Positions 54,699-64,000 of a stretch of DNA of 64,000 nucleotides are shown in pieces (positions within the stretch are counted from its first letter, which is position 1; each line of letters starts with the position of its first letter). The notes beneath the pieces are model-generated. The model was not told where the DNA came from. It saw nothing but the letters and a program-made list of their open reading frames with translations, and searched no databases. Source of the DNA: Thermoproteota archaeon (lineage in GTDB: Archaea > Thermoproteota > Thermoprotei_A > EX4484-217-1); the NCBI GenBank assembly GCA_029258915.1, contig JAPDJU010000005.1, positions 201,797 through 265,796 on the forward strand, written 5' to 3'. The translations under genes were made by a program, and so were the position numbers.

Positions 54699-55268
54699 GT
54701 GCTAGTAAAGCAGATATGTGATATAATAAAGAGAAAGTATGTTTTAGAGACGTTAAGAGAGAACCCCATAATTAAAGCTTATAGAAGATTCTTTTGGAAA
54801 ATAGGCATAGATCCTACAAAAACTAGACCTAGCAGTGAAGCCCTTATACGAAGAGTTCTTAGAGGCAAAAATATTCCATCAATAAGCAACGTTGTTGATG
54901 TAAGTAATGCTGTAAGCATGGAGTCTCTAATCTCCATAGGCATATATGACATAGACAAAGTAAAGGGTAAGATAACATTTAGACTAAGCTTTAAAGGTGA
55001 GATTTTTAAACCTATAGGAGGACACGTAGAAGTTTTGAAAGAAGGAATACCTGTTCTAGCAGATGAAGAAAAAATACTGCATCTTTACCCGCATAGAGAT
55101 AGTATAGATACCATGGTTACTGAAAACACTAAAAACGTTCTTGTGATATCTGCTGGTGTTCCCGGAATTTCAAAAGAGAGAGTATGTTATGCGGTTAAGA
55201 GGACGTGTGAATTACTAAGTAAATATGCTGACGGCTGTGTTAAAGTTTTAAATATACTGCCATCATAG
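54699..55268 (+). CDS. B3/B4 tRNA-binding-domain protein (COG3382-like)
   Basis: 189 aa. The region around AYRRFFWKIGIDPTKTRPSSEALIRRVLRGK resembles the B3/4 domain. Confidence 0.5.
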   Translation: MLVKQICDIIKRKYVLETLRENPIIKAYRRFFWKIGIDPTKTRPSSEALIRRVLRGKNIPSISNVVDVSNAVSMESLISIGIYDIDKVKGKITFRLSFKGEIFKPIGGHVEVLKEGIPVLADEEKILHLYPHRDSIDTMVTENTKNVLVISAGVPGISKERVCYAVKRTCELLSKYADGCVKVLNILPS

Positions 55269-55272
55269 TTAA

Positions 55273-56328
55273 GTGTATAATAACGGTTTATTAGACATGA
55301 AAACTATACAGGGTAGGTTCTTAATTAGAGTAGGTGTCGATATAGATGTACCTCTTGTAGGCTCTATAGCCTTCGGCTTAATAGATAGAGGAACCAATGT
55401 TATACAGGTAAGACCGGTAAGTTTTTGCAATCTATGCTGCATAATGTGCTCCACAGATGCTGGTCCTTGTTCTAAATGGAGGCAAGCAGAATATTGGATA
55501 GACTTAGACCTTATTGTAGAGTGGTTTAAGGGTATTGTTAAGTTTAAGGGAAGCAAGCATATAGAAGCACACATAGATACTGTTGGAGAACCCACACTTT
55601 ATTCTAGGCTTATAGACCTTATTCAAGAGCTGAAGAGTATTAGCGGGGTAGAGGTTGTAAGCGTGCAAACTCATGGTCAAAACCTGTCAGTAGATAAGGT
55701 GGAGGAGCTTGAGGATGCTGGTCTTGATAGAATAAACTTAAGTGTGGACGCATTAAACCCGGAACTAGCTCACTATATTCAAGGAGCAAAATGGTATAAT
55801 GTTGAGAAGGTTATTAGCGTTGCAGAGTACTTGGTTCAGAATACTAAAATAGATCTACATATAGCACCAATACTGTTGAAAGGTATAAATGATGAAGAAA
55901 TACCTAAAATAATTAAGTGGGCTTTAAAAATAGGTGCAGGGAAAAGGTGGCCTCCTCTCGGAATACAAAAGTATGTTCCTCATAAGCATGGGCGTAAACC
56001 TAAGAATATAAAGGTTATGAACTGGAGTGAATTTTGGGCATATTTGAAAAACTTAGAAAGAAGATTTAACATAAAGCTTATTCCATCAATGGAAGACTTC
56101 GGCATTAAGAGGATGAACATTTTACCTGCGCCATTTAAGGTAGGAGAGAAAGTTAAGGTTAAGGTTGTAGCTCCAGGGTGGTTAAAGTCTGAGAAATTAG
56201 CTGTTGATATGAAGTGTTTAAGAACAATAACCATTATCAGAGCTGACCATATTCCACTAGGCAGCAAGGTTAATGTAAGGATAATTAGGAACAAACATAA
56301 TATCTATATCGCTGAACCTTTAGTTTAA
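55273..56328 (+). CDS. radical SAM protein with C-terminal TRAM-like beta domain
   Basis: 351 aa with CNLCCIMC (C-x3-C-x2-C). Confidence 0.65.
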   Translation: MYNNGLLDMKTIQGRFLIRVGVDIDVPLVGSIAFGLIDRGTNVIQVRPVSFCNLCCIMCSTDAGPCSKWRQAEYWIDLDLIVEWFKGIVKFKGSKHIEAHIDTVGEPTLYSRLIDLIQELKSISGVEVVSVQTHGQNLSVDKVEELEDAGLDRINLSVDALNPELAHYIQGAKWYNVEKVISVAEYLVQNTKIDLHIAPILLKGINDEEIPKIIKWALKIGAGKRWPPLGIQKYVPHKHGRKPKNIKVMNWSEFWAYLKNLERRFNIKLIPSMEDFGIKRMNILPAPFKVGEKVKVKVVAPGWLKSEKLAVDMKCLRTITIIRADHIPLGSKVNVRIIRNKHNIYIAEPLV

Positions 56329-56537
56329 GCTAAAGCAGCTTCCTTAAACACAGGGCTTCTCTTTATAGGGTTAAGGAAGTCAATTATGGGGTCTATCGTT
56401 ATTAAGCTCTCGTTAATATGTTCTTTAGAGCTAATTTTCTCTTTCAACCTAAACACCATAGTTACTACTTCAGCAAAGAATTCTTTAAAAACGTATTCTC
56501 TTAGTATCACTTATGAAATTAGGGGTTATTAGAGAAT

Positions 56538-56975
56538 ATGAGGTTAAGTAAAGTATCTAATGGAACAGTAGTCGTAGCGGATTTAGATAAGTTTGAAAAA
56601 ATAACTGAAGAGAAAGGTTTTGATAGATATAAACCTAACGTAATTACAGGAACGCTAACGCAGCTTATAGAGAACTTTACCAGAAAATGGCAAGCACATG
56701 TTCTTTACGGACTTGACTATGAAAGAGGAACAGAGGAAACAGTTATACTGATACCAATGGTGAAACCTGAGGAAGTTATTGAAGATCTTGAAAATATAAG
56801 GAGAAATATAGAAAAACTAGGTGCTACATTAAGCATAGGAGTATCATATGGTCCCTTAGACGTTATTAAAGCTAGAAATAGAAGAGAAGCATATTCTGGG
56901 TTAACTGTTAAAAGAGCTTTGAAAGCACTAAGAGAGGCAAAGAGAAAAGGAGGAAATAAGATAATTATAATGTAA
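56538..56975 (+). CDS. minimal GGDEF-like (nucleotidyl-cyclase palm) domain protein with degenerate GTEET signature
   Basis: 145 aa. ADLDKFEKITEEKGFD aligns with GGDEF DIDxFKxINDxxGH. YERGTEETVILIP aligns with RYGGEEFVVIMP. TLSIGVS and AKRKGGNKII align with the GGDEF C-terminal ISIGVS and AKxxGRNxV. Confidence 0.55.
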   Translation: MRLSKVSNGTVVVADLDKFEKITEEKGFDRYKPNVITGTLTQLIENFTRKWQAHVLYGLDYERGTEETVILIPMVKPEEVIEDLENIRRNIEKLGATLSIGVSYGPLDVIKARNRREAYSGLTVKRALKALREAKRKGGNKIIIM

Positions 56976-56985
56976 GTGGTATTCT

Positions 56986-57624
56986 ATGGCTGAGCTCTCA
57001 GAAATAATAGGCTATGCTGTAAAACCGAGAAAAGGAGTCTTACCGTCATTTAAACCACACCACGTATTAAAAGCTCTTATTATGCTATACAATAAAGGAC
57101 CCTTAGGTAGGAAGGCTTTATCTAGAGAACTAAAGATAGGTGAAGCAAGCATCAGAACCCTGATTTCAAGGTTAAAGGAGAAGAAGCTTGTAGATGTAAG
57201 TTTAGCAGGGGGCGCTTATCTTACAGAACATGGCTTAAGTATTATGAGAAACATTGTGAAAAAGCTTGTTTACCTAAAGCCTATTAACACGAAGGAACTT
57301 AGTTTCCTTAAACTTGCACAATACGCCCACATAGCTCTTATTAGGGGGGGATGCAAGGTTAAACCTAGAGTTGTTAAGCTTAGAGATAAATTAGTAAGGT
57401 ATGGTGCTGAAGCAGCACTCATTATGTGTGTTGAAGATGGTAAACTAGTATTAGAACCGAGTAGGGCTGGGAGAATATATGAAAACATTTCCTCAGAGCT
57501 AAAGGTTATAGAGAAAAACCTAGCAAACATGCAAAACAACGACTTAGTAATTATTTCATACAGCAATACGCCGGAATTATGTGAGCAATCATTACTAATG
57601 TTTATAATAGACTTTTTAGGGTAG
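56986..57624 (+). CDS. winged-helix (MarR-like) protein with uncharacterised C-terminal domain
   Basis: 212 aa. VLKALIMLYNKGPLGRKALSRELKIGEASIRTLISRLKEKKLVD is a wHTH. Confidence 0.5.
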   Translation: MAELSEIIGYAVKPRKGVLPSFKPHHVLKALIMLYNKGPLGRKALSRELKIGEASIRTLISRLKEKKLVDVSLAGGAYLTEHGLSIMRNIVKKLVYLKPINTKELSFLKLAQYAHIALIRGGCKVKPRVVKLRDKLVRYGAEAALIMCVEDGKLVLEPSRAGRIYENISSELKVIEKNLANMQNNDLVIISYSNTPELCEQSLLMFIIDFLG

Positions 57625-57630
57625 TACTTC

Positions 57631-58449
57631 ATGGTGCTCATTTATAGAAGAGAATTAACGGTAACATATCATGGGGGGTTCATGAGCTATAAAATACCTA
57701 TAATAGAAGTTTATGGCAAGGAAAAACCATGTATACTTATAGCATTAAATCTTTCAAAAGTGTACGGTAAACCAACCATCATAGAAGACCTATGGTACAT
57801 TATCAGAAAACTAAGAAGCGAGGAAATAGCTGGAAAAATAACATTCGCATATATAACAAGGAAATTTAAACAACATACACTGGATAACGTGCTAAACTTT
57901 AGTAACTACGATGCTATAGTAGAGGTTTTATTTCTTGGAAGATCATACCCTTACTTGATAAGTTTCACATATGGTGAAAAGCGCAACTTCGGAATATCTA
58001 AACTATGGATAAGCAGGGAATCCGAAGAATTTCTAAAGAAAACATCGATACTTGCCAGTAAGGATAATATAACACACATAGTCTATGTGGCTTCCTCATC
58101 TATTAAAGTGGATGAGAAAAACAGCGGCGAGCTTAATTATAATGCACTTATGAATATATTTAAAGCTTATAACCTAATACCAGGAAGTTTAGATAATCTC
58201 AAGCTTATCGATGAAAGATTTAGAGAGGTAAAGATATTGACTTCAAGTTCTAAGGGTGGAATACTACTGCTTAAAAACAATGTAGGGCAAAAAATAAACA
58301 AAGGTGCTTTAATATATGAGATAAAAAATGTTTTCGGTGAATTAGTGGATTCCATGGTGTTTAGCGGGAAGGGAGGAATTATTATTTCCTGTACAGAAAA
58401 AATGTTTGTGAAACCTTATGACTATGTAGTATCCATAGCCACCGTTTAA
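57631..58449 (+). CDS. hypothetical protein
   Basis: 272-aa ORF. It is the third gene of a tightly spaced operon. Confidence 0.45.
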   Translation: MVLIYRRELTVTYHGGFMSYKIPIIEVYGKEKPCILIALNLSKVYGKPTIIEDLWYIIRKLRSEEIAGKITFAYITRKFKQHTLDNVLNFSNYDAIVEVLFLGRSYPYLISFTYGEKRNFGISKLWISRESEEFLKKTSILASKDNITHIVYVASSSIKVDEKNSGELNYNALMNIFKAYNLIPGSLDNLKLIDERFREVKILTSSSKGGILLLKNNVGQKINKGALIYEIKNVFGELVDSMVFSGKGGIIISCTEKMFVKPYDYVVSIATV

Positions 58450-58455
58450 CTGAGG

Positions 58456-58992
58456 CTAAATGGTTTTCTGTTTCTTAAATCTTTCAATAGCTTCAACTAT
58501 TTTCCTTTTAGCTTCATCAGGTCCTTTCCATTCCCTAATTTTAACCCATTTTCCAGGCTCTAGTTCTTTATAATGTTCAAAGAAGTGCTTTATCTTATTC
58601 TTCAACGCATCTGGTAAGTCTTGGATAGAATTTATGTTCTCCCATCTTGGGTCGATTTTTGTCTTAGGTACGGCAATAACCTTGCTATCCGGGCCTTCTT
58701 CGTCTTCCATTATTAGAAGACCTATAGGCTTAGCTGGAATTATTGTTCCTGGATGAACAGGTTCATACCCTAGAACCAACACGTCCACAGGATCTCCATC
58801 CTCTTCTAAAGTAGATGGTATGAAACCGTAGTTAAACGGGTAAACCATTGATGTATAAAGTATTCTATCTATAAATATCATGCCTGTTTCTTTGTCTATC
58901 TCATATTTTATATTAGAGTTCATGGGTATTTCTACAACAACATATATGTCCTCTGGAGGATTTTTACCGGGAGGAATTTTCTTAAGTGACAT
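58456..58992 (-). CDS. ppa: inorganic pyrophosphatase
   Basis: 178 aa with the family I PPase motifs ([22 protein letters not shown]). Confidence 0.9.
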
Positions 58993-61315: not shown

Positions 61316-61470
61316 TTAACCATAAAAATAGTTCCTTAGGGATATTTAAATGGTTGTCGAAAAATCGCAATAAGTATGGTTATGCAATGTAAAATTATGT
61401 TTATTAGGTGATTTAATATACATAAAATATTTATATGCCATGAATGTACTTTACCTTAGAGAGTGAGAAC

Positions 61471-64000
61471 ATGAGGAAAACATCATTTAAATTGCTGATT
61501 CCCGTTCTACTAGCTATGTTAGCAATAAGCTGCTTAGCTACCCTATCGCATACCGTAATAGTAGCTCAGGAAGTACCTAGAGGTCCTTGGGTTGATGAAG
61601 TAGTTTTCATAGAGGAAGGAGATCCTGACAAAATATTAGAAATGCTGAAGAACAATGAAATACAAATATACTTTGATGAAATAACGGATCCAGAGAAATA
61701 CCAGAGAATGTTAGACTATGGTTTAAAAGTATGGTTCTCGTATGCTCTATACTATGAACTAACATTTAACCCCGTAGGCCCAGTATTTAACACCACCGGT
61801 AAACTTAACCCATTTGCAGTTCCAAGAATAAGAGAAGCTATGAATTACCTTGTTGATAGAAACTACATAGCTAGCGAAATATTGGGAGGCTTAGCGATAC
61901 CTAGGTACGTAGCTATAACACCAAGCTTTCCTGACTATGCTAAGTATTACGATATAATCTATGAGATTGAAGAGGAATATAAATACAACTTTGATAAAGC
62001 TAAAGCAATAATATTCGAGGAAATGACTAAACTAGGTGCAGAGTATCGTGCAGCTGAAGGGAAATGGTATTACAATGGAGAACCTGTCGAAATAATATTT
62101 CTAATTAGAACAGAGGATGCAAGAAAACAGATTGGAGAGTATGTTGCTGAACAGCTAGAAAAACTAGGCTTTACTGTTGTACGTAAATATGGAACTAGCC
62201 GAGAATTAGCACCCTACTGGATATATGGAGACCCAGCAGAAGGTACATGGCACATATATACCGGCGGCTGGATAACAACAGTTGTATCTAGAGATGAAGC
62301 CGATAACTTTGGGTTCTTCTATACTAAACTAGGACTACCCGTGCCATTATGGCAATCATATGTTAATGCTCCAGAGTTCTACACTGCAGCTGAAAGATTA
62401 TGGACCAAAGCATTCACTACAATAGAAGAAAGAGACGAATTAATGAAGAAAGCTCTACGTCTCTCAATGAAGGAGTCTCAGAGAATATGGTTAGTAAACC
62501 TGATTGCACCATGGCCAAGAAGGCCTGAAATGGGGATCGCCGGTGACCTAGCTGGAGGCTATTCTGGATCATGGTTATGGTCTTGGACTTTAAGATATGA
62601 GGGGCAAGTTGGGGGAACGGTAAAAATTGCCATGCCCACAGTTATTGTAGAGCCATGGAACCCTGTTGGAGGTAGTGACTGGATATATGACATGACCGTA
62701 ATACGTGCGACAGGAGAAATACCTGCTATGCCTGATCCATATACTGGCCTATACTGGCCACACAGAATTAAGAAAGCTGAGGTCTATGTTGTTGAAGGAC
62801 TACCTGTTAAGAAGACGCTGGACTGGGTTGATTTAAATTTCGTATCTGAAATAACAGTGCCTCCTGATGCTTGGTATCGGTGGAACGCTGCAACTAAGAA
62901 AATAGAAACCGTTGGTGAAGAATTTCCAGAAGGAGTTAAAGCATTAGTTAAAGTTGTCGTATATTACGATGAAAAAATATTCACCGGCGAATACAAGTGG
63001 CATGATGGAAGCCCATTTGACATAGCTGACATAGTGTTTGACTTCATACTTACTCACGACAGAGCACAGCCAGAAAGCCCAGTATACGATGAATCATGGG
63101 TTCCTGAATATGAAGCATTTATGAAAACATTTAAAGGCTACAAGATAGTTAGCGAAGACCCATTAATAATTGAATATTACACGGACCTATGGTATATAGA
63201 TGCTGAATGGATAGCAGCAGGCGCAGCGGATACTTTCTGGCCATTCTACGCTTTCGGTGTAGCTCCATGGCATATGGTGGCTATTGGTTGGTTAGCTGAA
63301 GCTGAAGGTAAATTAGCTTTCACAGCGGACAAAGCTGACGCCATGAAGGTTGAAAGGACAAACTACATTGCAGGCCCATCATTAGACATACTTGCTGAAA
63401 TGCTTGGTAAAGCTATAGATGAAAAGTTTATACCATATAAGGAAGTTCTTGGAAAATACATTACCGAGGATGAAGCTTTAGAAAGATATAACAACCTTAA
63501 GAAATGGTGTGAGGAGAAAGGACACTTCTGGGTTGGTAATGGTCCATTCTATTTAGATAAAGTAGACGTCGTAGCCAAGCAACTAGTACTAAAAGCGTTT
63601 AGAGAACACATTGACACAGCCGATAAGTGGTTAATATTCTCAGAACCGCTAATACCTGAAGCAACTATTGAACCTATCGAGGTGGTTACACAAGGTTTAC
63701 CATCAGAATTCACTATAACAATAACACACAAAGGTGAGCCTTATAAGGTAGCCAATATGGAATATGTTAAATACATACTTGTCCATCCAGGAGGAAAAAT
63801 TATAGGTGAAGCAACTCCTGTAGCCGATGGGAAATGGAAGATTAGCTTATCTGAAGAAGAAACAGCAACATTATCGCCAGGTGCCGGCAAATTAATAGTA
63901 ATTGCTGTATCAAAGCTTGTTGGTAAACCCACAGTTACTGAGACAGCATTTACTATACGAAGCGTCGTAGGGTATGTAGGTGAAGAATTAGCTGCTGCTA
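61471..64000 (+). CDS. ABC transporter substrate-binding protein, family 5 (oligo/dipeptide-type), partial (3' end beyond window)
   Basis: ATG at 61471. It has an N-terminal signal/TM segment (LLIPVLLAMLAISCLA). The ORF of more than 840 aa is open to the window end. Confidence 0.7.
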   Translation, partial: MRKTSFKLLIPVLLAMLAISCLATLSHTVIVAQEVPRGPWVDEVVFIEEGDPDKILEMLKNNEIQIYFDEITDPEKYQRMLDYGLKVWFSYALYYELTFNPVGPVFNTTGKLNPFAVPRIREAMNYLVDRNYIASEILGGLAIPRYVAITPSFPDYAKYYDIIYEIEEEYKYNFDKAKAIIFEEMTKLGAEYRAAEGKWYYNGEPVEIIFLIRTEDARKQIGEYVAEQLEKLGFTVVRKYGTSRELAPYWIYGDPAEGTWHIYTGGWITTVVSRDEADNFGFFYTKLGLPVPLWQSYVNAPEFYTAAERLWTKAFTTIEERDELMKKALRLSMKESQRIWLVNLIAPWPRRPEMGIAGDLAGGYSGSWLWSWTLRYEGQVGGTVKIAMPTVIVEPWNPVGGSDWIYDMTVIRATGEIPAMPDPYTGLYWPHRIKKAEVYVVEGLPVKKTLDWVDLNFVSEITVPPDAWYRWNAATKKIETVGEEFPEGVKALVKVVVYYDEKIFTGEYKWHDGSPFDIADIVFDFILTHDRAQPESPVYDESWVPEYEAFMKTFKGYKIVSEDPLIIEYYTDLWYIDAEWIAAGAADTFWPFYAFGVAPWHMVAIGWLAEAEGKLAFTADKADAMKVERTNYIAGPSLDILAEMLGKAIDEKFIPYKEVLGKYITEDEALERYNNLKKWCEEKGHFWVGNGPFYLDKVDVVAKQLVLKAFREHIDTADKWLIFSEPLIPEATIEPIEVVTQGLPSEFTITITHKGEPYKVANMEYVKYILVHPGGKIIGEATPVADGKWKISLSEEETATLSPGAGKLIVIAVSKLVGKPTVTETAFTIRSVVGYVGEELAAA

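What the first reader, a model, noticed from the sequence alone, without database searches (positions are those of the whole stretch)
56538..58449. Minimal GGDEF-like domain protein with degenerate GTEET motif in a three-gene operon with a wHTH protein
The 145-aa protein aligns across the whole GGDEF palm domain. DLDKFEKITEEKGFD matches DIDxFKxINDxxGHD. YERGTEETVILIP matches RYGGEEFVVIMP. TLSIGVS matches ISIGVS. LREAKRKGGNKII matches YxAKxxGRNxV. The GG(D/E)EF signature is changed to GTEET, with both acidic residues retained. Bona fide GGDEF/c-di-GMP signalling is considered essentially absent from archaea. A stand-alone minimal palm of this type in a Sulfolobales-like genome is therefore unusual. 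It may be a divergent nucleotidyl cyclase or signal-nucleotide synthase, in the manner of mCpol/CD-NTase/Pycsar-like minimal cyclases. It is tightly followed by a wHTH protein with an unknown C-terminal domain (56986-57624) and a 272-aa unknown protein (57631-58449), with 10-nt and 6-nt gaps. This could be a small signalling or defence-like module.
Basis: partly seen in the sequence, partly recalled or inferred. Interest (0 to 1): 0.6.

Follow-up and report, generated by a model that had tools for sequence, protein, structure and literature searches.

The report
Archaeal stand-alone GGDEF-like palm enzyme
The 145-residue protein is a real but divergent relative of bacterial diguanylate cyclases. 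It belongs to a small archaeal family first noted in 2005-2010 whose function is still unknown, and its gene neighbours point to routine RNA/tRNA metabolism, not to defence.

Summary
The three ORFs exist as described, with 10- and 6-nt gaps. The 145-aa protein is homologous to the GGDEF palm: hhalign 97.6%, AF2 pLDDT 91, best folds GGDEF domains and class III cyclases.

It fails the curated GGDEF cut-offs. It lacks the N-terminal ~30 residues, the guanine-binding Asn/Asp, the I-site and any sensor domain.

It belongs to a compact archaeal family: 47 clusters at 50% identity among 1.84 billion proteins. The family occurs in Desulfurococcales (including Pyrolobus, Pyrodictium, Staphylothermus), Nezha-, Bathy- and Asgard archaea. 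DxD, N34, T37, GTEE and K135 are invariant, so it is probably an active two-metal NTP-using enzyme. Galperin (2005) and Anantharaman et al. (2010) very likely described this family (APE1864, MK0296).

The window is from a Desulfurococcales MAG, not Sulfolobales. The trio with the PH0730-type wHTH protein and the 272-aa protein occurs only in the window's own clade (19 of 156 loci). Elsewhere the gene sits beside TBP or a radical-SAM gene. In Asgard-type lineages it lies in overlapping operons with ArcTGT (tgtA) and a PHP phosphoesterase.

There are no defence-model hits and no viral copies. Verdict: a new member of a known, uncharacterised family. Its product is unknown.

The parts
56538..56975 (+). 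Gene for the 145-aa stand-alone GGDEF-like palm protein (GTEE family)
   Evidence: ORF. hhalign to a canonical GGDEF: 97.6%. AF2 pLDDT 90.7 with the GGDEF core order of strands and helices. Foldseek top hits are GGDEF domains and class III cyclases. 244 archaeal relatives at 90% clustering.
56580..56588 (+). DLD motif at the end of strand 1 (D15, D17): predicted metal-binding aspartates
   Evidence: Invariant in alignments A1 and A2. Aligns with DLDHF of a canonical GGDEF. Coordinates checked.
56628..56651 (+). YKPNVITG: family-specific segment spanning the 6-residue insertion, replacing the GHxxGD guanine-binding segment of GGDEF
   Evidence: N34 and T37 invariant, Y31 and P33 at least 90% conserved. 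hhalign places a 6-residue gap here in the canonical GGDEF.
56724..56738 (+). RGTEE hairpin, the counterpart of GGEEF
   Evidence: G64, T65, E66 and E67 are invariant in 36 divergent members. Aligned with YGGEEF.
56937..56957 (+). AKRKGGN, the counterpart of the AKxxGRN phosphate-binding motif
   Evidence: K135 is invariant. The Arg of GRN is replaced by Gly.
56511..56519 (+). TTATGAAAT, a TATA-like element about 23 nt upstream of the ATG; a possible promoter for a leaderless transcript
   Evidence: Read directly from the sequence. Inference only; no archaeal promoter model was run.
56986..57624 (+). 212-aa PH0730-family protein: N-terminal winged HTH plus C-terminal DUF4443
   Evidence: Pfam PH0730-like_N 41.9 bits and DUF4443 40.8 bits, both above cut-off. 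Near-full-length match to PDB 2p8t (residues 9-202 of 212), E = 1.4e-13. Adjacent to the palm gene in 19 loci, all in one clade.
57631..58449 (+). 272-aa fast-evolving protein of unknown fold, the third gene of the clade-specific operon
   Evidence: No Pfam, NCBIfam, PADLOC or PDB hit. Only 4 database relatives. The AF2 model is unusable, pLDDT 35. There are weak barrel-sandwich (Biotin_lipoyl, 4e-4) hits in the C-terminus of distant positional homologues.
55273..56328 (+). 351-aa MoaA-like radical SAM protein, a recurrent neighbour of the palm gene in Desulfurococcales
   Evidence: Pfam Radical_SAM 3.3e-22. Lies within two genes of the palm gene in 31 of 156 loci, in several orientations. The Staphylothermus hellenicus orthologue is 42% identical.
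56325..56510 (-). Small conserved ORF (61 aa here, 88-90 aa in relatives), divergent from the palm gene
   Evidence: Cluster C29 is adjacent to the palm gene in 10 loci. No Pfam match.
58456..58992 (-). Inorganic pyrophosphatase, convergent; marks the 3' boundary of the trio
   Evidence: Pfam Pyrophosphatase 2.2e-63. Same position in the window-clade loci.

Best explanation
The 145-aa protein is a member of a small archaeal sister family of the GGDEF domain, the 'GTEE' stand-alone palm proteins. This is very probably the MK0296/APE1864 family of the literature.

It most likely works as an active two-metal-ion enzyme that uses NTPs. D15 and D17 on strand 1, and E66 and E67 in the hairpin, would hold Mg2+/Mn2+. 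K135 would bind the triphosphate. A 3'-OH would attack the alpha-phosphate and release pyrophosphate.

Its nucleotide-base pocket has been rebuilt: a YxPNxxTG insertion replaces the guanine-reading Asn/Asp of diguanylate cyclases. Its substrate or acceptor therefore need not be GTP plus GTP.

The gene belongs to the core genome and acts in a housekeeping context linked to RNA/tRNA. It is not part of c-di-GMP signalling or defence. In the window's clade it heads an operon with a PH0730-type wHTH protein, a probable local regulator, and a lineage-specific 272-aa protein.

Shown: homology, fold, motif conservation, family size, gene contexts. Inferred: catalysis, metal ligands, RNA-linked role, regulator role.
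For: Homology and fold:
- hhalign 97.6%.
- PDB sequence hits are GGDEF proteins only.
- Foldseek finds GGDEF domains and class III cyclases at TM 0.6-0.7 on a pLDDT-91 model.

Selection on the catalytic set:
- D15, D17, N34, T37, G58, G64, T65, E66, E67 and K135 are invariant across 36 members that share as little as 32% identity.

A compact, separate family:
- 47 clusters at E<1e-3 in 1.84e9 representatives. Canonical GGDEF proteins appear only at E > 1e-9.

Core-genome character:
- One copy on the 1.4-2.0 Mb chromosomes of Pyrolobus, Pyrodictium and Staphylothermus.
- Sequence clusters follow lineages.
- No viral copies. No PADLOC hit.

RNA/tRNA-type neighbours:
- tgtA (ArcTGT, TIGR00432, 555-571 bits) overlaps the palm gene's start in 10 loci. 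Nine of these fall in 4 palm clusters at 60% identity. The tenth, L163, was not clustered.
- A PHP phosphoesterase lies immediately downstream in 16 loci, giving fully overlapping tgtA-palm-PHP operons in L163, L097 and L105.
- An RsmB-type methyltransferase and a TRAM protein flank it in Nezha-like loci.
- TrpRS is nearby in the Heimdall group.
- One protein is a Toprim-palm fusion.

Literature: Anantharaman et al. 2010 (PMC2904730) predicted that this kind of protein is active and not a signalling protein.
Against: - There is no biochemical result for any member.
- The contexts are heterogeneous, and no partner is universal.
- TBP adjacency (42 loci) and radical-SAM proximity may only reflect inherited gene order within Desulfurococcales.
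- One lineage has a histidine kinase overlapping the palm gene's start (L164). The window clade has a wHTH protein with a putative ligand-binding domain. A PHP hydrolase could be a messenger phosphodiesterase. All three would fit a signalling role equally well.
- A single palm domain with no obvious dimerisation module may need a partner to be active.
- I could not confirm by sequence that MK0296 and APE1864 belong to this family.
Confidence: 0.5

Rival explanations
1. It is a second-messenger synthase. The palm protein would make a cyclic or linear di- or oligonucleotide, either c-di-GMP-like or with a different base. The DUF4443 domain of the downstream wHTH protein would sense this product in the window clade. 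The PHP phosphoesterase would degrade it in Asgard-type lineages.
For: - GGDEF is the closest relative by sequence and fold.
- The catalytic residues are invariant.
- The palm gene is tightly coupled to a wHTH protein that has a small C-terminal domain.
- The palm-PHP pair recurs in 16 loci, and PHP enzymes hydrolyse short phosphodiesters.
- A histidine kinase overlaps the palm gene in L164.
Against: - The guanine-binding Asn/Asp, the Arg of GRN, the I-site and the N-terminal helix are missing.
- No sensor or dimerisation domain is present in any of the members whose sequences were read, apart from one Toprim fusion.
- The wHTH partner is restricted to one clade.
- No c-di-GMP has been detected in the archaea examined, and EAL/PilZ domains are essentially absent from archaea (PMC10249747).
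- Co-transcription with tgtA is not what one expects of a signalling enzyme.
Confidence: 0.2
2. It is a GTP-processing enzyme, not a transferase. In the manner of GTP cyclohydrolase III, which also has a cyclase-like palm, it would feed GTP-derived pterin or 7-deazaguanine (preQ0/archaeosine) pathways.
For: - It forms operons with ArcTGT.
- A TGT-like protein lies nearby in Pyrodictiaceae.
- A MoaA-like radical SAM gene is a neighbour in Desulfurococcales.
- From established knowledge: GTP cyclohydrolase III uses a cyclase-like fold with acidic metal ligands.
Against: - No PDB sequence other than GGDEF proteins matches the family profile, so GCH III (2qv6) is not recovered at E<10. It is also not among the 50 best Foldseek hits shown.
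- Pfam GCH_III gives no hit at E<1.
- The guanine-reading residues of GGDEF are lost.
- The radical SAM protein does not match any curated MoaA, QueE or RaSEA model above its threshold.
Confidence: 0.07
3. It is an anti-virus signalling module like CBASS, Pycsar or mCpol. The palm would be the cyclase, and the wHTH and 272-aa proteins would be sensor and effector.
For: It is a small stand-alone cyclase-like protein followed by two poorly conserved genes, the last of which evolves fast.
Against: - PADLOC gives no hit for the palm or the 272-aa protein.
- The flanking genes are housekeeping ones: glutamate dehydrogenase, YjbQ, pyrophosphatase and an ABC transporter.
- The family is single-copy and its distribution follows lineages.
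- It is absent from viral contigs.
- The 272-aa protein has no recognisable effector domain such as a nuclease, TIR, transmembrane segment or protease.
- The trio is limited to one clade.
Confidence: 0.03
4. It is a catalytically dead palm used as a binding or scaffold module, as some degenerate GGDEF domains bind RNA or nucleotides.
For: - The GGDEF signature is altered to GTEE[T/A].
- The domain is truncated, as Galperin 2005 noted.
- Median pI is about 9.
Against: All three acidic metal ligands and the phosphate-binding Lys are invariant over divergence down to about 32% identity. This is not expected of a degenerate domain.
Confidence: 0.07

Closest known systems
Archaeal 'truncated GGDEF' proteins MK0296 (Methanopyrus kandleri) and APE1864 (Aeropyrum pernix), as described by Galperin 2005 (PMC1183210) and Anantharaman, Iyer & Aravind 2010 (PMC2904730)
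   Same: - Stand-alone and archaeal.
- Lacks the N-terminal part of GGDEF.
- Keeps the three acidic catalytic residues.
- Has no signalling domains.
- Aeropyrum is a Desulfurococcales genus, as is the source of the window, and the family is present in Acidilobaceae MAGs (L036, L041).
   Different: Nothing known. I could not compare the sequences of MK0296 and APE1864 directly, so membership is inferred at about 85%. Those papers gave no function and no gene-context analysis.
Bacterial GGDEF diguanylate cyclases (Pfam PF00990; PleD, WspR, DosC)
   Same: - The palm fold and its order of secondary-structure elements.
- The DxD on strand 1.
- The acidic pair in the beta-hairpin.
- The SIG(V/I) strand.
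- The AKxxG(x)N helix with the phosphate-binding Lys.
   Different: - Scores below the curated thresholds.
- The second Gly of GG(D/E)EF is an invariant Thr, and Phe is replaced by a small residue.
- About 30 N-terminal profile positions are missing.
- A 6-residue insertion replaces GHxxGD.
- The guanine-binding Asn and Asp, the Arg of GRN and the RxxD I-site are all absent.
- It is fused to a sensor or receiver domain in none of the members examined.
Class III nucleotidyl cyclases, including the Pycsar cyclases
   Same: Comparable structural similarity: TM 0.6-0.7 to the Rv1900c and Ma1120 cyclase domains. Both are minimal palm domains.
   Different: No sequence similarity is detectable. [quoted passage not shown] There is no PADLOC Pycsar hit.
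PH0730 of Pyrococcus horikoshii (PDB 2p8t), for the second gene
   Same: Near-full-length homology (residues 9-202 of 212 matched) with the same wHTH plus DUF4443 architecture.
   Different: PH0730 has no known function. The link to a palm gene is specific to the window's clade.

Membership tests
GGDEF diguanylate cyclase (PF00990 / TIGR00254) | Score at or above the curated family threshold | tested here: not met
   Pfam 18.9 bits against a cut-off of 23.8. TIGR00254 24.5 bits against 37.4. Only 1 of the 40 close homologues carries a precomputed PF00990 hit.
GGDEF diguanylate cyclase (PF00990 / TIGR00254) | Palm fold with a metal-binding Asp on strand 1 and an acidic pair in the hairpin | tested here: met
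   AF2 model and Foldseek. D15, D17, E66 and E67 are invariant and aligned to the DLD and EE of a canonical GGDEF.
GGDEF diguanylate cyclase (PF00990 / TIGR00254) | GG(D/E)EF signature | tested here: not met
   The motif is G-T-E-E-[T/A/V/S/C/F], and the Thr is invariant.
GGDEF diguanylate cyclase (PF00990 / TIGR00254) | Guanine-specifying Asn (in xIND) and Asp (in GHxxGD), and the Arg of GRN | tested here: not met
   The Asn position is T23, which varies within the family. The GHxxGD segment is replaced by a 6-residue insertion, YxPNxxTG. Arg is replaced by G139. The residue roles come from established PleD literature.
GGDEF diguanylate cyclase (PF00990 / TIGR00254) | Complete domain including the N-terminal helix and turn, and an attached sensor or dimerisation module | tested here: not met
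   The Pfam match starts at profile position 31 of 161. Listed members are 133-197 aa with nothing attached, apart from one 292-aa Toprim fusion.
GGDEF diguanylate cyclase (PF00990 / TIGR00254) | Makes c-di-GMP from 2 GTP | not testable with these tools
   Needs an enzyme assay.
Archaeal stand-alone GGDEF-like family (MK0296/APE1864 type) | Archaeal, single-domain, N-terminally truncated relative of GGDEF that retains three acidic residues and has no signalling domains | tested here: met
   compared with the descriptions in PMC1183210 and PMC2904730.
Archaeal stand-alone GGDEF-like family (MK0296/APE1864 type) | Direct sequence relationship to MK0296 / APE1864 | not tested
   These sequences were not obtainable.
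mCpol / Cas10-type minimal CRISPR polymerase | Cas10-like palm (GGDD hairpin) linked to CARF or effector genes, in a defence context | tested here: not met
   The hairpin is GTEE. No Cas10 structure appears among the PDB sequence hits. PADLOC gives no hit. No CARF or effector gene lies nearby.
CD-NTase (CBASS) | Pol-beta-type nucleotidyltransferase fold | tested here: not met
   The fold is the RRM-like palm of GGDEF domains and cyclases. PADLOC gives no hit.
Pycsar / class III nucleotide cyclase | Cyclase homology domain recognisable by sequence, with a defence effector alongside | tested here: not met
   The resemblance is at fold level only. There are no sequence hits and no effector gene.
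GTP cyclohydrolase III (PF05165) | Match to the GCH_III family | tested here: not met
   No Pfam hit at E<1. No PDB sequence hit.
PH0730-like wHTH / DUF4443 (second gene) | Both Pfam domains above threshold, and homology to 2p8t | tested here: met
   The L005 homologue gives the same result.

The most novel reading that the evidence does not exclude
[quoted passage not shown] This could be a di- or oligonucleotide messenger, or a nucleotide added to tRNA/RNA, and it would be tied to ArcTGT/G15 tRNA metabolism. The co-transcribed PHP phosphoesterase would be its hydrolase. In the window's clade the PH0730-type wHTH/DUF4443 protein would be its receptor. This would give Thermoproteota and Asgard archaea their own GGDEF-derived nucleotide system.
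Probability: 0.15. Interest if true: 0.8.

Novelty: new member of a known kind. Interest (0 to 1): 0.42.

Why it matters
Canonical GGDEF/c-di-GMP signalling is regarded as absent from archaea. This family is the closest archaeal relative of the diguanylate cyclase, and its catalytic centre is fully conserved. It has gone unstudied since it was first noted in 2005-2010.

Cultured hyperthermophiles carry the gene: Staphylothermus hellenicus, Pyrolobus fumarii and Pyrodictium delaneyi. A direct NTP-turnover assay is therefore feasible.

The contexts found here have, to my knowledge, not been reported. They are the overlapping tgtA-palm-PHP operons in Asgard-type lineages, a Toprim-palm fusion, and the clade-specific wHTH partner. 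They turn 'function unknown' into a few testable alternatives and bear on how the GGDEF, Thg1 and Cas10 palm enzymes diverged.

Tried and rejected
- Structure of the 272-aa protein. AF2 on 5 sequences gave pLDDT 35, so no fold search was attempted. A profile of positional homologues gave only weak barrel-sandwich hits against PDB and Pfam.
- My guess that the 272-aa protein is a degenerate AstE/AspA-type deacylase. It rests only on an E = 0.69 hit and is not claimed.
- Radical SAM neighbour as RaSEA, the partner of ArcS. Rejected: NCBIfam gives only sub-threshold MoaA-like hits, and the closest PDB sequence is MoaA at 36 bits.
- Radical SAM neighbour as related to the 597-aa Zn_ribbon_HMPTM radical SAM next to the Pyrolobus palm gene. 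Only the generic radical SAM core is similar.
- The metagenome scan with the broad alignment A2 failed for lack of a conserved stretch. It was repeated with A4.
- The window contains no TBP, tgtA, PHP, TRAM or RsmB homologue, no tRNA and no Rfam match.
- Family pI (median about 9) is uninformative.
- The supplement of PMC2904730 does not contain the MK0296 sequence.
- No paper characterising the family was found.
Full report
**1. What is there**

The three ORFs exist as described: 56538-56975 (145 aa), 56986-57624 (212 aa) and 57631-58449 (272 aa). All are on the + strand, separated by 10 and 6 nt. A convergent inorganic pyrophosphatase gene (58456-58992, Pfam 2.2e-63) closes the unit.

Upstream lies a 209-nt spacer. 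It holds a small conserved antisense ORF (56325-56510) and a TATA-like TTATGAAAT about 23 nt before the ATG. The trio is therefore plausibly a single transcription unit.

The window comes from a Desulfurococcales archaeon, not a Sulfolobales-like one. Locus L001, from an uncultured Desulfurococcales MAG, has the same gene order, and its palm protein is 96% identical.

**2. Is the GGDEF resemblance real?**

Yes.

- As a single sequence the protein is below the curated cut-offs. Pfam GGDEF gives 18.9 bits against 23.8, E = 1.4e-3, but covers profile positions 31-161. TIGR00254 gives 24.5 bits against 37.4.
- A profile of 36 family members aligns to a canonical RYGGEEF protein with hhalign probability 97.6% and E = 2.9e-12.
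- The same profile searched against all PDB sequences has only GGDEF diguanylate cyclases among its meaningful matches, best E = 3.7e-5.
- An AlphaFold2 model (pLDDT 90.7, pTM 0.86) shows the GGDEF core order of strands and helices.
- Foldseek against the PDB gives GGDEF domains first (WspR 3i5b, E = 1.8e-7, TM 0.69). Class III adenylyl cyclases score similar TM values.

**3. How it differs from a diguanylate cyclase**

- The match begins at profile position 31, so the N-terminal helix and turn of GGDEF are absent.
- The hairpin reads G-T-E-E. Thr is invariant where GGDEF has its second Gly, and a small residue replaces Phe.
- A six-residue insertion, YxPNxxTG, replaces the GHxxGD segment. N34 and T37 in it are invariant.
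- By the established PleD residue assignments, the guanine-reading Asn and Asp are therefore gone, and the Asn position (T23) varies within the family.
- The Arg of GRN is a Gly. There is no RxxD I-site.
- Listed members are 133-197 aa with no sensor, receiver or coiled-coil module.
- D15, D17, E66, E67 and K135 are invariant in sequences that share as little as 32% identity. That argues for a working two-metal nucleotidyl-transfer site and against a degenerate domain.

**4. The family**

- An exhaustive HMM search of 1.84 billion representative proteins finds only 47 clusters at E<1e-3 and 39 at E<1e-10. Ordinary multidomain GGDEF proteins appear only above E about 1e-9. This is a compact, separate clade.
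- The word-indexed search finds 244 clusters at 90% identity. All named ones are archaeal: Desulfurococcales (including Pyrolobus fumarii Pyrfu_0834, Pyrodictium delaneyi Pyrde_1599 and Staphylothermus hellenicus), Fervidicoccaceae, Nezhaarchaeota, Odin-, Jord- and other Asgard archaea. They are annotated 'hypothetical' or 'GGDEF domain-containing'.
- Genome and metagenome scans add Heimdall-, Hod- and Bathyarchaeia, Pyrodictiaceae, Acidilobaceae and Culexmicrobium.
- No relative occurs in 2.9 million viral contigs.

**5. Prior knowledge**

- Galperin (2005, PMC1183210) excluded 'the truncated sequences in MK0296 and Aeropyrum pernix APE1864' from his census of GGDEF proteins.
[quoted passage not shown] They predicted these to be active and judged them unlikely to be signalling proteins.
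- The description and the taxa fit the present family. I could not obtain those two sequences, so the identity is inferred.
- Later reviews still state that GGDEF/c-di-GMP is absent from archaea.
- I found no functional study of the family.

**6. Is the trio a module?**

Only locally. I called and clustered ORFs in 156 loci that carry the palm gene.

- The PH0730-type wHTH gene follows the palm gene in 19 loci, and the third gene follows in 16.
- All of these loci belong to one clade, in which the palm is at least 65% identical to the window protein. The nearest loci without the trio are at most 58% identical.
- Within that clade the arrangement survives considerable divergence: the wHTH protein drops to 31-33% identity, and the third protein to about 20%.
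- The second protein matches the solved but uncharacterised PH0730 (2p8t) over nearly its whole length (E = 1.4e-13). It has a CggR/SorC-like wHTH followed by DUF4443. A local transcription regulator is the obvious reading.
- The third protein has no detectable family. Its AF2 model failed (pLDDT 35), and only a weak barrel-sandwich signal appears at the C-terminus.

**7. Contexts elsewhere**

In Desulfurococcales:

- The palm gene is next to the TBP gene in 42 loci.
- It is within two genes of the same MoaA-like radical SAM gene in 31 loci, in several orientations. In the window this is 55273-56328.
- Other common neighbours are an SbcD-related metallophosphoesterase, glutamate dehydrogenase, FeoB, an M48 protease and DUF2070.

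Outside that order the partners change, and the genes are tightly coupled:

- tgtA overlaps the palm gene's start in 10 loci. It is the archaeosine tRNA-guanine transglycosylase (TIGR00432, 555-571 bits against a cut-off of 350). Nine of these loci represent four different palm clusters at 60% identity. The tenth, L163, was fetched later and not clustered.
- A PHP-family phosphoesterase follows immediately in 16 loci.
- L163, L097 and L105 carry tgtA-palm-PHP with every junction overlapping.
- Nezha-like loci have a divergent RsmB-type RNA methyltransferase and a convergent TRAM protein.
- Heimdall-type loci have TrpRS beside the PHP gene.
- One protein (P0079) fuses a Toprim domain to the palm and is again followed by a PHP gene.
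- One lineage has a histidine kinase overlapping the palm gene (L164).
- PADLOC finds nothing for the palm or the 272-aa protein.

**8. Interpretation**

The safest statement is this. The gene encodes a catalytically competent NTP-using palm enzyme of an archaeal sister family of GGDEF. It is inherited as part of the core genome, and its nucleotide-base pocket has been rebuilt.

The neighbours with an RNA/tRNA flavour favour a housekeeping nucleotidyl-transfer role on, or near, RNA. These are ArcTGT, TRAM, RsmB, TrpRS and Toprim, along with enzymes that handle PPi and phosphodiesters (PHP, pyrophosphatases). This agrees with the 2010 prediction.

A messenger-synthase role remains possible. In that case PHP would be the hydrolase, the wHTH/DUF4443 protein a receptor, and the histidine kinase in L164 an input. 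This is the most interesting reading.

A GTP-cyclohydrolase-III-like role has only contextual support. A defence role is effectively excluded.

None of this can be settled without an enzyme assay.

**9. Verdict**

This is a new member of a known but uncharacterised family. It is of moderate interest, mainly because of the newly seen tgtA-palm-PHP operons and because cultured hosts make the biochemistry feasible.

Noticed in passing
window 54699-55268 (+) and 55273-56328 (+): A stand-alone B3/4-domain protein ends 4 nt before the MoaA-like radical SAM gene. B3/4 is the tRNA-binding/editing-type domain of PheRS beta (Pfam 1.2e-35). The pair recurs in the window clade. In other Desulfurococcales the same radical SAM gene is instead preceded by a SAM-dependent methyltransferase, often overlapping it. 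This may be an uncharacterised RNA or protein modification pair.
   Followed up: partly
window 56325-56510 (-): A small ORF lies between the radical SAM and palm genes, divergent from the palm gene. It is 61 aa here and 88-90 aa in relatives, is conserved in 10 related loci, and matches no Pfam family.
   Followed up: partly
L163:2427-5052; also L097, L105: tgtA (ArcTGT), the palm gene and a PHP phosphoesterase form a three-gene operon in which every junction overlaps. This occurs in Asgard-type or related lineages.
   Followed up: partly
L073:4782-5660 (protein P0079): A 292-aa fusion of a Toprim domain with the GTEE-type palm (here RGTEQ). A DUF167/YggU gene precedes it and a PHP gene follows, overlapping.
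   Followed up: partly
L164:2883-4462: A histidine kinase (HisKA plus HATPase_c) overlaps the palm gene's start by 4 nt, with a PAS protein and a second HATPase protein nearby. This is the only signalling-type context seen.
   Followed up: no
L016:6511-7647 (-) and 8 further Pyrodictiaceae loci: An uncharacterised TGT-superfamily protein of about 380 aa with a DSGGY motif lies one or two genes from the palm gene. It matches TgtA at only 39 bits and has no Pfam hit.
   Followed up: partly
window 61444-64000 (+): A large ORF of more than 850 aa with an N-terminal signal/anchor-like segment runs off the window end. By eye it looks like an ABC-transporter substrate-binding protein. It coincides with the rise in GC to 0.41.
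   Followed up: no
window 58456-58992 (-); Nezha-like loci L098-L103, L113, L141: Pyrophosphate-hydrolysing enzymes recur near the palm gene: soluble PPase in the window clade and some Pyrodictiaceae, and membrane H+-PPase in Nezha-like loci. This may be coincidence, or it may fit a reaction that releases PPi.
   Followed up: no
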